64,000 nt of DNA. It comes from Laetmonice hystrix (taxonomy: Eukaryota). Each line of letters opens with the position of its first letter. Position 1 is the first letter of the stretch. Position numbers: made by a program. This document shows positions 27,001 through 57,000 of this stretch, in pieces. The DNA lies in NCBI GenBank assembly GCA_965235115.1, contig OZ249442.1, positions 27,714,001-27,778,000 on the forward strand. Direction: 5' to 3'.

Positions 27001-30000
27001 CTTCCGATGGGGTCGATATAAAGTTTGTAGCGATGTTGATGGTTTTGGCGCGCTCTTCGATCACATGATCTCTGAGGCATGTAGCGTAACCTTTGGAGCA
27101 TGATTCCTGCTTTCTTTGTGTTAATAATTATCGACGGCCGAGACCAATCTGTTGTGTCCGTTTTGACCTTGGTTATATCGTTTACTCTCCCTGCAGACCT
27201 ACCCGCTACTCCAGAAAATCGCAGATTCCGAGCGAGGCCGACGTCTACCTTTCTGAAATCATCCGTGTTTCTCCGTACAATAGGGAATTCATGCGGATAA
27301 TTAAACTGGTCATTAAATAATTGAGACAATTCAATGCCAAGTATGAAGAATGTGAAGAAGACAGAAACCGTAAGAATGCTCCATAACGAATACATGTTCC
27401 AGAACGTGCTCAGGAAGTCCATTGGCAGTGTAAGCACCTTTAGTTAACAATACATGTTACAGAACGTGTTCAGGAAGTCCATTGGCAGTGTAAGCACCTT
27501 TAGTTAACAATCTCGGCATGTAACTGAGAATAAAGTTGTCTGATGATGGAGACGACTGTCCATTGCCTCCGGATGGCATTCTGAAATCACAAAACGTACG
27601 ATTGGATTAGGTGACACAGCGACAGGATACGGAATGATTTTAATTGTACTGGGACAAAAGTCGTCATACAGGAATCTTGTCACACGCCCAGAGATGCCTA
27701 CTTCTTCCTTGCGTGTCATATTTATGGGGAGCGTTAAATTATGGACAAAAATAATGGTTTGAATATGCACAGATGAAATAGTTTTTAACTTAAAAGTAAC
27801 GTCGCCTCGGCGATATCCAATGATCATGAAATCTCAAATAAAACGTCGTTGTGACGGTTGACAAAACGGTTGACAAAACGTCGTTGTGACGGTTAACAAA
27901 ACGGTTGACAAAACGTCGTTGTGACGGTTAACAAAACGGTTGACAAAACGTCGTTGTGACGATTGACAAAACGTCGTCGTGACGGTTGACAAAACGGTTG
28001 ACAAAACGTCGTTGTGACGGTTAACAAAACGGTTGCAGCTAAAGAGTTATTAAAGAGTGAGGGACCCATGTTTTGAGTCGCATACTTATCTTGATCAGCC
28101 ATGCATCGGTTGTCCCTTTCCAGGGCAGACACACACACAGACAGACAGACAGACAGACAGCTCACTACACCTCAACACGACATGCCAACCTTCGCCTCCT
28201 CCAAGGATTAACCGCAGTTCGTTCCCCTTGACCTACCTTTGGAATATCCTCTATATATGCCATAATATACACAAATATAACTCACAGAGATCACTTTGTC
28301 ATACGTCCGAACCAGAATAACCTTTATCTCCGAGTACTGAGAGTATTCACCGGTCGGACCTGTTCCTCACGGTATTTGGCACTCACTCTTGTCCGTTATG
28401 TGACAAGCAAATGTATATTTTTATATAAGTATAAAAGTATGGCGGTCTGCGGGTTGCCATGGTTTGGGAATGTCCTCAGTGTCTGTAACGAGCCATGAGA
28501 GCGGGCACGGTTCCCGACCACGGTAATTTCCAGCCAGCTTGGCCCGTACCTTCACGATGTCTACTGCTGGGCAGCCGTCGATCATAACCACTGAATATTC
28601 TCATTTCTTTCAGACTGACGAAACACAACTTACCTCTTTGTCTCCGGACAACTTCTGTGACTGGATGATAAAGGAGAGAGAAGACGACGTCTTCAGAAGG
28701 ACAGTGCTCAAGGTTTTAACCCAGGGTCATGCCTGCCTGTATACCTCTGTCCAGCCGGGCCTGCATGCCCCTCGCATGACAAAACCATCTAACCCGCCTT
28801 TCCACAGATTTGCAGAAAATTATATCCACAGGCAAATGAGCTGACCTACATTAGACAGACACCTGTTGTCCTGTCAAAAACACATAGTTTAGGTCGACAG
28901 GCATGCTTAAGTTCCTTTGGTGGGGGTCGCTCGCTCTGAAAATCTTGTTGGAGGGCGGGTGGGGGGGGGGGGGGGGGGTGACTGACAGAGGGTGACCTAC
29001 GAGCAATGTTATAGAATGTGTGCCTTCAGGTTCTAGGAGACACCGTCAAGGTCTGGTAGCCTACACTACCAAGTAACAAAATGTCTTTGTGTTAAAGGGG
29101 CATATTATAAGAAAACGTGAAAAATCGGTCTTTTATGAAATTTATGAAGCTCCCTTGCTGGCCATATGGACAAACGGCTCCAACCATCGTTTGCACGTGG
29201 CTTTTGTTGATCGATCGAGTGCAACTGCTGAATTGTTTACAACTAAGCGAAGCACGTGACTAAGCACATCCAAAAAGTGCACACGCAGGATGTGACACAG
29301 TATGCAATTACACGTGTTGATGGGAGGTTGTCTACCCAATTATGGCGGGAGATGTGCTATCGGGAGAAATCTATGCGTTTGGTCGTATAGAATCTACTTG
29401 TGCTGCATACGCAGTCACATTGTGACTATCAGTAAATAAAGGTGCAGGAATGCCATTGTAAGCAAGGTGGAAATTCATGGAATAATTTGTTAAAATAATT
29501 TTCCAGGCCTGGAAAGTCATGGAATTTTGCATCACGTCATGGAAAGTCATGGGATTTAAATGTGGGGGAAAGCTTTGCCTGATTTCGAAAATGGAAACTA
29601 TAAAGACCCCAATTTTGGTTACAAATTTGTTCATAAATTGTTAATAAAATCACAAAGATTAGATGGTATATATTCTTTTTTAATCATATTTTTATTTTTC
29701 GCCCAAGACATTTACAATGATACAAAACAAGACATTTACAATGATAAGAAACGACATTGACAATGTGCCTGTCTTTGATAGTAGATGGTGGTTGATCGAC
29801 AGGAGTCCTTCCCGCACACCAACGAGCGAAGCGACCTCTAGCGAGTAGGACGGTTCTTTCCGACTTTAGCGCCTCTAGCGGTCACGCACTGCATAGCCGC
29901 ATAGCGGCGCTAGGGGCATTATGCAAGACGTCAGATCTACATGTGTGAATGCAGTGGCGGATCCGGGGGGGGGGGCTTTGGGAGCTTAGCCCCCCCCCCC

Positions 30001-54000: not shown

Positions 54001-57000
54001 CTCCTTCCCACACGATTCACACAGATATAAACGCAAACCTTCATGCACCGAACTCATATGCTTGAAGAAATGTGTTCTGTTATACACATAAAAGTCACAA
54101 ATGGAACAGTGGAAGTATTTCACTCCCAAGTGGGACATTTCTATGTGCTTACGTACAATGCGTCTATTTCCAAAATATTGTTGACATATGGCACACTTCG
54201 TTTTCTCATGTGCATCAGACCTGTGCTGGTTGAAAGTTCTGTAAGTAGTAAAATGTTTGGAGCAATCCTGGCACTTGAAGTCTTGTCCCTCTACTTCAGC
54301 CCTATGCACTATTTGTAGGTGTTTACGAATATCTTCCCTAGGGAATCTCTGTCCACATATTCCACATGGGAGATAAACCTTGTTACGACTTGACACATCT
54401 CGTTTCATCACCTTGATGTGTTGACAGACAGGAGAACTCCTGTCCCACTCGTGCTGTCTCTCGAGGTGAAGGTGAATCTGGTATCGATGGATCACCTTGT
54501 ACGGACAGTTCAAACAACTAAACATTGTCTTTTCATGTTGTTCTTCCACGTGGAAGACAAACAATGACGGAATGGTACACATGAACGTACATTGGGTACA
54601 CACGTATTTGTCCCCTTTGTTTCCCCCTGGATTTGCTAATTTTCCAAGACCATGAGCCTCGGCTAGATGATTTGTGACTTCTTGAACTCTATCCTCAATC
54701 AATTCCTTCCACTCGTACCCACAGAAACTGCACTTCTTGACCTCTTGATCACCATGACAACTGAGGCTATGACCAACCATGGGCTGGTATTCATCAAACG
54801 TCTCCTCGCAAAAGTTACAAGGGAAAATCTCCATCTCAATGTTCTGTTTTGGTTCCTGAGGGAGTGGGGCATTGCTCTCAACCACCTCTTCTGCGAAATC
54901 AGCTTGGTTTCTCTTCACCTTCCATGAGAATCCAGGAAACCAACTAGGGTCATCGCCTTTCTCCTCTTCTCCTTCTTCTTCATCTTCATCATCTTCTTCT
55001 AGTTCTTCCTCTTCTTCTCCGTCTTCTTCTTCATTAACTGTTTCTTTTGATAGTGCAAGTTCACCATTAACTTCACTTGTTTGTGCTTCTTCTTTCACTT
55101 TGATCTCATCCAGTGGAAGCTGTATATCGAGAGACAACCTATCACTCCCCTTAGGTTGTATAATTATAGGTTCAGGATTATCTGGACTTGTTCCAGCCAG
55201 CTGCCCAGTCAGATGTTCTATAGGTGTCTCAGCATTACTGCGACTTTTCTTCCATCCGAATGTCGAGTGTACCATTACCATTTGTCCAGCCCCCTCTTCA
55301 TCACTGTAACATAAAAGAGTTGCACAAGACTTTGGGATACTTTAAATTAGAAAGAGGGGTACGTCAAGGGGACCCTTTATCCCCCTATTTTTTGATTTTA
55401 GCAATGGAGATTTTAGCACAGGTTGTTAGGGAGGAGAAAGCTATAAGGGGAGTAACACATTGGGGGAGACGGAAATGAAATTGACTCTCTATGCAGATGA
55501 CAATACTGGGTTAAAGTGAGTTTTATAAAAATATCGGATGTATCGCCTCACTATGGCTCATAATCAACAACAGACCTAGCACAACAATGTTATGGATACG
55601 ACAAAATGTTTTATCAGTCCTGTGGGATAAATTTAAGATCAGGTAAGCTTGAAATACGCAGATTCGTAGGAGATGGGGACACCGCTTCGACAAAACCCGG
55701 TGGCCGTAGGGTGATCGTTTACCTTTAAGTTTCGCACCCCCCCCCCCAGAAAACCTTCTCACATGCCTGGTCAACTGTCCAGGGTCATGTAGGTACAGTA
55801 AATGAGAACTTCAAACAAACCTCAGGTATATGTCGTTGTCATCATATAGGTCCACATCTTCTTCTTGTGGGTATGCTACTGTAAGACTGAAATGATAATT
55901 TCAAGGAGGGTTAGTGTGTACTGAACATTAGTAAAAAGGGTAAAATTACTCCACACTATTGTGGAGCGCCCACACAGATACTGGTCAGGCCATTTGTAAA
56001 ATAACGTTTCTAGTGTTTGCCTTAAAATCTGTATTTGCCCATATAGACAGCCATAAGTCAGGAATGCATTGAAACTTGTCGGGTTGAACTGACAACATAC
56101 AAGTATACTTATACACTCATACCTTAGATCCATGTCAGTCTTCTGTGCAACTTGCTCCTCATCCGATTCTAGTTTTACAACCCCTGAGAGCTCACCACTG
56201 TAATCATATGGCATAATCCTCAATATAACTTCATGGTGTACACTTAGGCAACCCCTGAGAGCTCACCACTGTAATCATATGGCATAACCCTCAATATAAC
56301 TTCATGATGTACCCGTAGTAGGCAACCCCTGAGAGCTCACCACTGTAATCATATGGCATAACCCTCAATATAACTTCATGATGTACCCGTAGTAGGCAAC
56401 CCCTGAGAGCTCACCACTGTAATCATATGGCATAACCCTCAATATAACTTCATGATGTACCCGTAGTAGACAACCCCTGAGAGCTCACCACTGTAATCAT
56501 ATGGCATAACCCTCAATATAACTTCATGATGTACCCGTAGTAGGCCTACTATATGTTTGTCAGGACAAATCCTCTGATATTTACCTATACAATTTGAAGG
56601 CCCCTTTGATTTCATTGAAGTTATTTACTTTAGAAACGTACAATTTACTATTCAACTGTTACATAATTCAGGACACAGATTGCACTGACTAACCTTGAAC
56701 TTGGCACAGTCGATATCGACTCTGCAAACTGAGGTTTGTCAAACTCCATCAATGCTGGCGCTGGAGTCGACGGTCCAGGTTGTGGAGATGGTGGTGCTGG
56801 AGTTGTTGATTTGGAAGTCTCTGGCTGAGGGGTGGGTGCAGATGTGAATGGTGACTTCCTTTTGGGCTGCTGGTTTTCTTCAAAGCTGAAAAAATTTGAA
56901 TAAAATTATCATGTCTGCAGAACTTCTACTCCACATCATAAAAAAGAAAGCAGGTCAGACAACCCCTCAGATAACACGCAAAACTCTTCTCTTTTTTTGT

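What the first reader, a model, noticed from the sequence alone, without database searches (positions are those of the whole stretch)
27391..56544. Minisatellites repeatedly born on splice sites, in all four genes
Seen: four unrelated arrays start at an exon edge and copy the splice signal into the intron. These are PIGT 31 bp x9 (acceptor), ZNF 71-74 bp x5 (acceptor), CARD-Kelch 77 bp x3.3 (donor) and FUT 60 bp x2 (putative acceptor plus ATG). In the three spliced cases, using a decoy site leads straight to a stop codon. Inference: either a mutational bias for tandem duplication at exon-intron junctions, or copy-number-variable tuning of unproductive (NMD) splicing.
Basis: partly seen in the sequence, partly recalled or inferred. 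Interest (0 to 1): 0.65.

Follow-up and report, generated by a model that had tools for sequence, protein, structure and literature searches.

The report
Minisatellites that duplicate splice junctions ("mirages")
Three young tandem repeat arrays in this animal gene cluster each copy a splice site plus a few exon bases into the neighbouring intron, a kind of repeat already described in lancelets as "mirage" minisatellites, and this one window cannot show that they arise at splice sites more often than chance and short introns allow.

Summary
All four arrays are real, mutually unrelated and locally born. Three span a modelled splice junction. The PIGT 31-bp array carries 8 decoy acceptors plus the used one and includes 4 exon bases. 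The ZNF 74-bp array carries 4 decoys and 20 exon bases. The BTB-Kelch 77-bp array carries 3 decoy donors and 12 exon bases. Only the PIGT junction is anchored by homology; the other two rest on open frame, consensus and phase. The FUT 60-bp duplication copies the start codon and creates a 12-codon upstream ORF. Its "acceptor" is not supported. Using a decoy does lead to an early stop, but so does retaining 12 of the 13 modelled introns (median 11.5 codons). Enrichment over random placement is nominal: 3 observed against 0.81 expected (P=0.046), or 4 against 0.87 (P=0.010); within gene bodies P=0.015-0.023. The structure matches the "mirage" minisatellites reported for lancelet Adh3, globin, TnC and PGBD5 genes. 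This is a new instance of a known kind. Mutational bias and NMD tuning remain untested. The organism was not identified.

The parts
47540..47819 (-). PIGT 'mirage' array: 31-bp unit x9, each unit holding a putative branch site (TTAAT), a pyrimidine tract and AG. There are 8 decoy acceptors plus the authentic one. The array reaches 4 bases (47543-47540) into exon 8.
   Evidence: TRF; register and variants; exon overlap. The branch-site reading is my inference from the consensus.
47388..47543 (-). PIGT exon 8 (156 nt). Its acceptor lies at 47545-47544, and its first two bases complete a codon begun in exon 7 (donor after 47974).
   Evidence: Pfam Gpi16 E=1.2e-12. Human PIG-T 7w72_T residues 333-386, E=1.7e-12, with identity starting at the split-codon G and then YG. 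Phases.
46188..51093 (-). PIGT gene, 10 coding exons: 51093-50901, 50034-49857, 49465-49225, 49042-48956, 48830-48743, 48503-48409, 48181-47974, 47543-47388, 46947-46701, 46512-46188. Introns are 125-866 nt; intron 5 has a GC donor.
   Evidence: Pfam Gpi16 matches on 8 exon-bearing ORFs; splice sites and phases read exon by exon. Exon 7 itself has no family or PDB match.
56178..56545 (-). ZNF 'mirage' array: 74-bp unit x5, with 4 decoy acceptors (first 'exon' bases at 56490, 56416, 56342, 56268) plus the modelled one at 56197. 20 exon bases are repeated. The unit next to the exon is the most diverged (71 bp).
56123..56197 (-). Modelled ZNF exon B, 75 nt, phase 2 in and out (cassette-like), donor AAG|gtatga. 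It lies between exon A (donor after 56694) and the zinc-finger exon (55303-53773).
   Evidence: Phases. This is the only place in the 1390-nt interval that yields an open, phase-compatible exon: 3 candidates, all ending at 56123. There is no homology or transcript support. Exon A could also join the main exon directly in frame.
35023..35278 (-). BTB-Kelch-gene 'mirage' array: 77-bp unit x3.3. It holds the authentic donor after 35267 and decoys after 35190 (two substitutions, both in the donor motif), 35113 and 35036. 12 exon bases are repeated.
35267..35417 (-). Modelled exon Y (151 nt, phase 0 in, phase 1 out) upstream of the BTB-Kelch exon (acceptor at 34732, matching phase).
   Evidence: Acceptor with 11 of 15 pyrimidines and GTAAGT donor. 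The single-exon fold gives three helices, mean pLDDT 83. An alternative donor after 35316 (CGG|gtgagc, phase 0) cannot be excluded.
33267..34732 (-). BTB-Kelch exon, the last coding exon of that gene.
   Evidence: Pfam BTB E=7.1e-10 and Kelch_1 E=1.3e-30; nearest Atlas clusters are Kelch-like proteins.
27384..27511 (-). FUT 60-bp duplication (x2.1) covering -29 to +31 around the start codon (ATG at 27422-27420). The upstream copy carries an ATG at 27482-27480 followed by a 12-codon ORF and a stop.
   Evidence: No splice junction could be placed here.
26223..27422 (-). Single-exon alpha-1,2-fucosyltransferase (GT11) coding region, 399 aa.
   Evidence: Pfam Glyco_transf_11 E=4.7e-42; translation; Atlas clusters all GT11.

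Best explanation
These are 'mirage' minisatellites. In a genome that forms minisatellites at a very high rate and has short introns, some founder duplications happen to straddle an exon-intron junction.

Such a duplication is tolerated because the outermost copy still yields the normal mRNA. That copy is the last acceptor or the first donor, the one attached to the rest of the exon. The array can then grow by unequal exchange or slippage into the intron, leaving 3-8 near-identical decoy sites.

Decoy use would add 31, 74 or 77 nt (none a multiple of 3) and an early stop. Such transcripts would be unproductive and probably removed by nonsense-mediated decay.

The FUT array is the same kind of event at a start codon. 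It leaves a decoy ATG with a 12-codon upstream ORF.

What is shown:
- the arrays, their register with the junctions, the identity of decoy and used sites, and the stops;
- the homology anchor for PIGT.

What is inferred:
- the ZNF and Kelch-gene exon edges;
- neutral or nearly neutral persistence;
- the growth mechanism;
- the fate of decoy transcripts.
For: - Array structure and youth: 95-98% matches.
- The window is 23.8% tandem arrays and the modelled introns are 125-866 nt. A random unit of 31-77 bp inside these gene bodies therefore spans a junction with probability 0.17-0.36.
- Decoy and used sites are letter-identical over the splice motif: 8 of 8 PIGT decoys, 4 of 4 ZNF decoys and 2 of 3 Kelch-gene decoys.
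- Edge copies are the most diverged, as is usual for minisatellites (PIGT first copy, ZNF last unit).
- The units occur nowhere else in the window.
- The PIGT acceptor is pinned by the alignment to human PIG-T, which starts at the split codon.
- The same structure is published for lancelet Adh3, globins, TnC and PGBD5, with unit sizes of 10-160 bp, copy-number differences between haplotypes and regular splicing by RT-PCR (passages in PMC3087553; PMC3902484).
Against: - Nominal enrichment over random placement (P=0.046, 0.010, 0.015-0.023) leaves room for more than a passive filter.
- 3 of the 4 non-coding arrays inside the three spliced gene bodies span a junction.
- Two of the three junctions are unverified models. 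The Kelch-gene exon has a rival donor after 35316, which would put the array 38 nt inside the intron. ZNF exon B may not be an exon at all, since exon A and the main exon are phase-compatible on their own.
- The organism is unidentified, so a link to the lancelet literature rests on resemblance only.
- No RNA or second haplotype could be examined.
Confidence: 0.72

Rival explanations
1. Mutational hotspot: splice junctions, or their pyrimidine tracts or transcription-linked structures, are intrinsically prone to tandem duplication. Arrays would then be born there more often than elsewhere.
For: 3 junction-spanning arrays against 0.81 expected in the window (P=0.046), or 4 against 0.87 with start codons (P=0.010). 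3 of 13 modelled introns carry one. All three large intronic arrays of the spliced genes span a junction (P=0.015).
Against: The P values are nominal and post hoc, from one window picked out by a reader. The null ignores that arrays may differ in density between genic and intergenic DNA. The breakpoints are not unusually close to the junction (exon share 4 of 29, 12 of 75 and 20 of 72; Fisher P=0.117). Two acceptors, one donor and one start codon share no common sequence feature.
Confidence: 0.12
2. Adaptive rheostat: the copy number of decoy sites sets the share of unproductive, NMD-targeted transcripts and so tunes expression.
For: All decoy routes end in early stops. Decoys are as strong as the used sites by sequence. 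A human precedent exists for an intronic VNTR acting on the balance between productive and NMD-linked splicing, by a different mechanism (TERT VNTR6-1, abstract read, PMC11830802).
Against: Early stops are the default for intron sequence here (median 11.5 codons, 12 of 13 introns). Housekeeping PIGT is an unlikely target. The decoy nearest the Kelch-gene donor carries 2 of the array's 3 substitutions inside the 9-nt donor motif (P=0.038), and the two PIGT decoys nearest the exon share a change at the putative branch A. That looks like weakening of decoys rather than maintenance. Published mirages showed no aberrant mRNA by RT-PCR, although NMD could hide them.
Confidence: 0.05
3. Gene-model artefact for part of the set: the ZNF and/or Kelch-gene arrays are ordinary intronic minisatellites whose units contain splice-like motifs, and the neighbouring 'exon edge' is not used.
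For: There is no family, PDB or fold match for exon Y or for the exon upstream of it. A rival donor lies after 35316. ZNF exon B has no homology support and is dispensable for the frame.
Against: Exon B is the only open, phase-compatible candidate in 1390 nt. Exon Y keeps its frame to 35267 and closes it 10 codons later. Its last 16 codons include a predicted third helix. All phases fit. PIGT does not depend on a model.
Confidence: 0.25
4. Array first: a pre-existing intronic minisatellite donated its last unit as a new splice site, shifting the exon edge.
For: Each PIGT unit is a self-contained acceptor. A published model uses mirage units to make new exon edges or introns (PMC3087553).
Against: The repeated unit includes exon bases that code for residues aligned to human PIG-T right from the junction. 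Non-repeat intron sequence remains beside each array: intron lengths are 430, 496 and 534 nt against arrays of 280, 368 and 256 bp.
Confidence: 0.04

Closest known systems
'Mirage' minisatellites of amphioxus (first named for Adh3 by Canestro et al. 2002, NAR 30:2871; later reported in globin, TnC and PGBD5 genes)
   Same: Tandem arrays of minisatellite-size units span an intron-exon boundary and multiply AG or GT splice signals. Both 5' and 3' boundaries are affected. Units are near-identical, with diverged edge copies (compared).
   Different: These are other genes (PIGT, a C2H2 zinc-finger gene, a BTB-Kelch gene). The organism is not identified. Splicing and length polymorphism were not testable. 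The 2002 paper itself was not held, so I know it only through citing passages and recall. The FUT case duplicates a start codon, which those passages do not describe.
Intron gain by tandem duplication of an AGGT-containing exon segment (Rogers model; Hellsten et al. 2011, PMC3265369)
   Same: A tandem duplication creates paired splice signals, and the mRNA is left unchanged when the outer sites are used (passages).
   Different: There, the duplicated segment is coding and the duplicate becomes a new intron. Here the intron pre-exists, with non-repeat intron sequence left beside each array, and only 4-20 exon bases are copied.
Tandem arrays of dual-specific AG|GT splice sites (polyubiquitin UBC; Duan et al. 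2024, PMC10809524)
   Same: A tandem repeat carries a splice motif at every unit boundary. The PIGT unit boundary reads AG|GT (abstract).
   Different: UBC units are in-frame coding monomers spliced stochastically. Here the units are non-coding, out of frame and full of stops. The ZNF and Kelch-gene junctions are not AGGT.
Intronic VNTR acting as a splicing switch (human TERT VNTR6-1; PMC11830802)
   Same: An intronic minisatellite whose length is linked to the balance of productive and NMD-linked isoforms (abstract).
   Different: It acts through a G-quadruplex inside the intron, not through duplicated splice sites at the exon edge.

Membership tests
Mirage minisatellite | Tandem array of minisatellite-size units (10 to about 160 bp in the published cases) | tested here: met
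   31, 60, 74 and 77 bp units, 2.1-9.1 copies, 95-98% matches; published unit sizes.
Mirage minisatellite | The repeated unit spans an intron-exon boundary, so exon bases and the splice signal are multiplied | tested here: met
   PIGT: met, homology-anchored. ZNF and Kelch gene: met under phase-consistent but unverified models. FUT: not met, since the array spans a start codon and no junction could be placed.
Mirage minisatellite | Regular splicing is kept; the duplicated sites give no detectable aberrant mRNA | not testable with these tools
   No transcript data are available. Only the consequence of decoy use could be computed.
Mirage minisatellite | Length instability between haplotypes or in somatic tissue | not testable with these tools
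   Only a single sequence is available, and no collection holds another copy of this locus.
Mirage minisatellite | Host is a cephalochordate (all published cases) | tested here: inconclusive
   Atlas neighbours are eukaryotic, commonest phylum Mollusca for the FUT protein and Chordata for the Kelch exon. There are no Rfam or tRNA markers.
Rogers-type intron gain by exon-segment duplication | The whole intron consists of the duplicated coding segment bounded by AGGT | tested here: not met
   Introns of 430, 496 and 534 nt hold arrays of 280, 368 and 256 bp plus non-repeat sequence. Only 4-20 exon bases are copied.
Dual-specific splice-site tandem array (UBC type) | AGGT at every unit boundary and in-frame coding units | tested here: not met
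   AG|GT occurs only in PIGT. The units are 31, 74 and 77 nt with in-frame stops.

The most novel reading that the evidence does not exclude
Junction-spanning minisatellites are far more common in this genome than passive tolerance predicts (3 of 13 introns here). The cause would be either that splice junctions are duplication hotspots or that arrays of equal-strength decoy sites act as heritable, copy-number-variable dials of productive splicing. Selection would blunt the decoys nearest the exon, and the same logic would extend to start codons (the FUT decoy ATG and upstream ORF).
Probability: 0.12. Interest if true: 0.7.

Novelty: new member of a known kind. Interest (0 to 1): 0.3.

Why it matters
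If 3 of 13 introns is representative, this genome carries thousands of equal-strength decoy splice sites beside real ones. That would make it a natural experiment on how the spliceosome chooses among identical sites, on how much unproductive splicing a genome tolerates, and on the proposed role of such repeats in shifting exon edges or creating introns (PMC3087553). As a single-window finding, however, it is a further instance of a described phenomenon.

Tried and rejected
- 'CARD' label. Pfam on the two candidate exons separately gave no family at E<=1. PDB sequence search gave nothing for exon Y, and one chance-level hit (E=0.52) for the exon upstream. A single-exon fold of exon Y gave three helices (pLDDT 83) but no Foldseek match in the PDB.
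- PIGT exon 7. It has no Pfam or PDB match, so the junction is anchored from the exon 8 side only.
- phmmer artefact. PIGT exon 8 against the PDB ranked polyubiquitin first by summing nine 4.6-bit stretches. I rejected this as an artefact.
- Organism. Rfam at gathering thresholds gave 0 matches and ARAGORN gave 0 tRNAs. Two Atlas look-ups gave no lineage.
- Other genes. 10 further long ORFs outside the four genes gave no Pfam family above its cut-off; there was one sub-threshold reverse-transcriptase fragment.
- Breakpoint position. The test of whether breakpoints hug the junction was not significant (P=0.117).
- 'Stops are special'. Rejected.
- Original 2002 mirage paper. It is not held.
- Minor coordinate error. 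Searches used PIGT exon 5/6 edges that were 1 nt off. This was corrected with the same result for the 27 junctions.
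Full report
**What the window is**

The 64-kb window has no N. Tandem arrays make up 23.8% of it: 40 merged arrays, 38 of them with periods of 10 bp or more. Four genes lie on the minus strand between 26 and 57 kb.
- A single-exon GT11 fucosyltransferase (Pfam E=4.7e-42).
- A gene ending in a BTB-Kelch exon.
- PIGT/Gpi16.
- A C2H2 zinc-finger gene.

I do not take the contig for human. The best-conserved PIGT exon is only about half identical to human PIG-T (27 of 54 aligned residues by my count of the printed alignment). Introns are 125-866 nt. 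The organism was not identified. Rfam and tRNA scans found nothing. The two Atlas look-ups gave eukaryotic neighbours, commonest phylum Mollusca in one case and Chordata in the other.

**Gene models**

One consequence is that a domain split between two exons could not be tested as a whole.

PIGT resolves into 10 coding exons with consistent phases, including one GC-AG intron. Eight exon-bearing ORFs match Pfam Gpi16.

Exon 8 (47543-47388) aligns to human PIG-T residues 333-386 (E=1.7e-12). Identity begins at the G of the split codon followed by YG. An in-frame stop lies five codons upstream, and the only AG between that stop and the aligned YG is the one at 47545-47544. Exon 7 has no family or PDB match. 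Its donor after 47974 fits by phase only.

For the zinc-finger gene the model has three parts:
- exon A, with donor AAG|gttagt after 56694;
- a 75-nt exon B (56197-56123);
- the main exon, from 55303.

All three are in phase 2. Exon B is the only open, phase-compatible candidate in the 1390-nt interval (3 candidates, all ending at 56123). It has no other support, and exon A could join the main exon directly.

For the Kelch gene, exon Y (35417-35267) ends in GAA|GTAAGT in phase 1. This matches the acceptor at 34732. A rival donor after 35316 (phase 0) remains possible.

- Pfam gave no match on either exon.
- PDB sequence searches gave nothing useful.
- A fold of exon Y alone is three-helical (pLDDT 83) but has no Foldseek match.

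**The observation**

The four arrays are at the stated coordinates, and their units occur nowhere else in the window.

| Array | Unit and copies | Sites | Exon bases in array |
|---|---|---|---|
| PIGT, 47540-47819 | 31 bp x9.1 | 9 copies of ttttgaag\|GTTA; the last is the used acceptor | 4 |
| ZNF, 56178-56545 | 74 bp x5.0 | 5 copies of gattacag\|TGGTGAG; the last is the modelled acceptor | 20 |
| Kelch gene, 35023-35278 | 77 bp x3.3 | Donor at 35267, exact copies at 35113 and 35036, altered copy at 35190 | 12 |
| FUT, 27384-27511 | 60 bp x2.1 | ATG plus 12 codons duplicated; no junction placed | none |

Of 26 junction probes over the 13 modelled introns, only these three have extra copies.

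Decoy use would give a stop at codon 2 (PIGT), after 8-17 codons (ZNF) or after 10 codons (Kelch gene).

The FUT array is different. It duplicates positions -29 to +31 around the ATG, so the upstream copy is a 12-codon ORF ending 22 nt before the real start. The AG inside the unit has 6-8 pyrimidines in the 15 bases before it, against 8-13 for the 13 modelled acceptors. Stronger AGs lie upstream of the array. The observation therefore holds for three arrays, one anchored by homology and two by model, and not for the fourth as a splice event.

**Is it more than chance?**

- Window-wide placement. I placed each of the 38 units at random in the window's non-exonic space. This predicts 0.81 junction-spanning arrays against 3 seen (P=0.046). 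Adding the two placeable start codons gives 0.87 against 4 (P=0.010).
- Within gene bodies. Each event has a probability of 0.17 (PIGT), 0.36 (Kelch gene) or 0.25 (ZNF). All three together give P=0.015, and at least 3 of the 4 non-coding arrays there gives P=0.023.
- Breakpoint position. The exon share of the units is not significantly small (P=0.117).
- Early stops. These are not special. Stop triplets sit at 6.2% of intron positions, and 12 of 13 introns, if retained, stop after a median of 11.5 codons.

These P values are nominal values from one window that was picked because it looked odd. They allow a mild excess but do not establish one.

**How it most likely works**

A tandem duplication that straddles a junction leaves one copy attached to the rest of the exon. 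Splicing at that outermost copy restores the normal mRNA, so the event can persist and the array can grow into the intron. That the arrays 'start at the exon edge' is therefore geometry, not a separate fact.

The decoys are letter-identical to the used sites, so discrimination must come from context. I note purine-rich runs just downstream of the PIGT and ZNF acceptors; this is my reading and was not tested.

Two small hints point to weakening of the decoys nearest the exon.
- 2 of the 3 substitutions in the Kelch-gene array fall in the 9-nt donor motif of the nearest decoy (P=0.038).
- The two PIGT decoys nearest the exon share an A-to-C change at the putative branch A.

Edge copies are the most diverged, as is usual for minisatellites.

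**Comparison with what is known**

- They occur in amphioxus globin genes and were first named for Adh3. Further loci are cited.
- Both boundary types are affected.
- Many units carry AG or GT signals, and haplotypes differ in copy number.
- Splicing was regular by RT-PCR.
- The paper proposes a model in which such repeats create new introns.

PMC3902484 reports 60- and 108-bp repeats on PGBD5 splice sites. It also cites TnC.

The 2002 paper itself was not held, so I know it only from these citations and from recall.

Related ideas are:
- intron gain by duplication of an AGGT segment (PMC3265369, passages);
- tandem arrays of dual-specific splice sites (PMC10809524, abstract);
- an intronic VNTR that shifts TERT splicing toward an NMD-linked isoform (PMC11830802, abstract).

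My searches surfaced no genome-wide census of mirages and no test of decoy use under NMD block. That is a statement about those four searches only.

**Verdict**

The arrays are real and three fit the published 'mirage' class. They are new members of a known kind.

Noticed in passing
35949-36160 (-): A 39-bp x5.4 array lies inside the open frame of the exon upstream of exon Y (modelled acceptor at 36189). Every unit carries a CAG|ATGGACC acceptor-like site in the same phase as that acceptor. It could be a coding 13-residue repeat or an in-frame 'mirage' giving variable repeat numbers.
   Followed up: partly
27445-27482 (-): The FUT duplication creates a decoy start codon with a 12-codon upstream ORF that stops 22 nt before the real ATG. 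This is a start-codon analogue of the splice-site decoys.
   Followed up: partly
48741-48742 (-): PIGT intron 5 appears to use a GC donor (AAG|GCAAGC). The flanking exons fit in phase and match the Gpi16 profile order.
   Followed up: partly
55224-55478 (+): A reverse-transcriptase fragment (Pfam RVT_1, E=6.6e-4, below the family cut-off) lies inside ZNF intron 2, on the opposite strand.
   Followed up: no
57868-58185 and 58455-58772 (-): Two almost identical 105-residue ORFs lie 587 bp apart, a direct repeat of unknown nature. The first has no Pfam family.
   Followed up: no
51892-52009, 62847-63281, 63282-63927: One 42-47 bp minisatellite family occurs at three places. The last two arrays abut in opposite orientation, forming a large inverted structure centred near 63281.
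   Followed up: no
1-25000: There are sixteen arrays, some very long (1971 bp of a 29-bp unit; 1631 bp of a 66-bp unit), with a strongly C-rich plus strand. Six long ORFs tested there gave no Pfam family above cut-off.
   Followed up: partly
54965-55032 (-): A TCT/AGA-type microsatellite (x22.7) lies inside the zinc-finger exon and encodes an acidic Glu/Asp-rich run.
   Followed up: no
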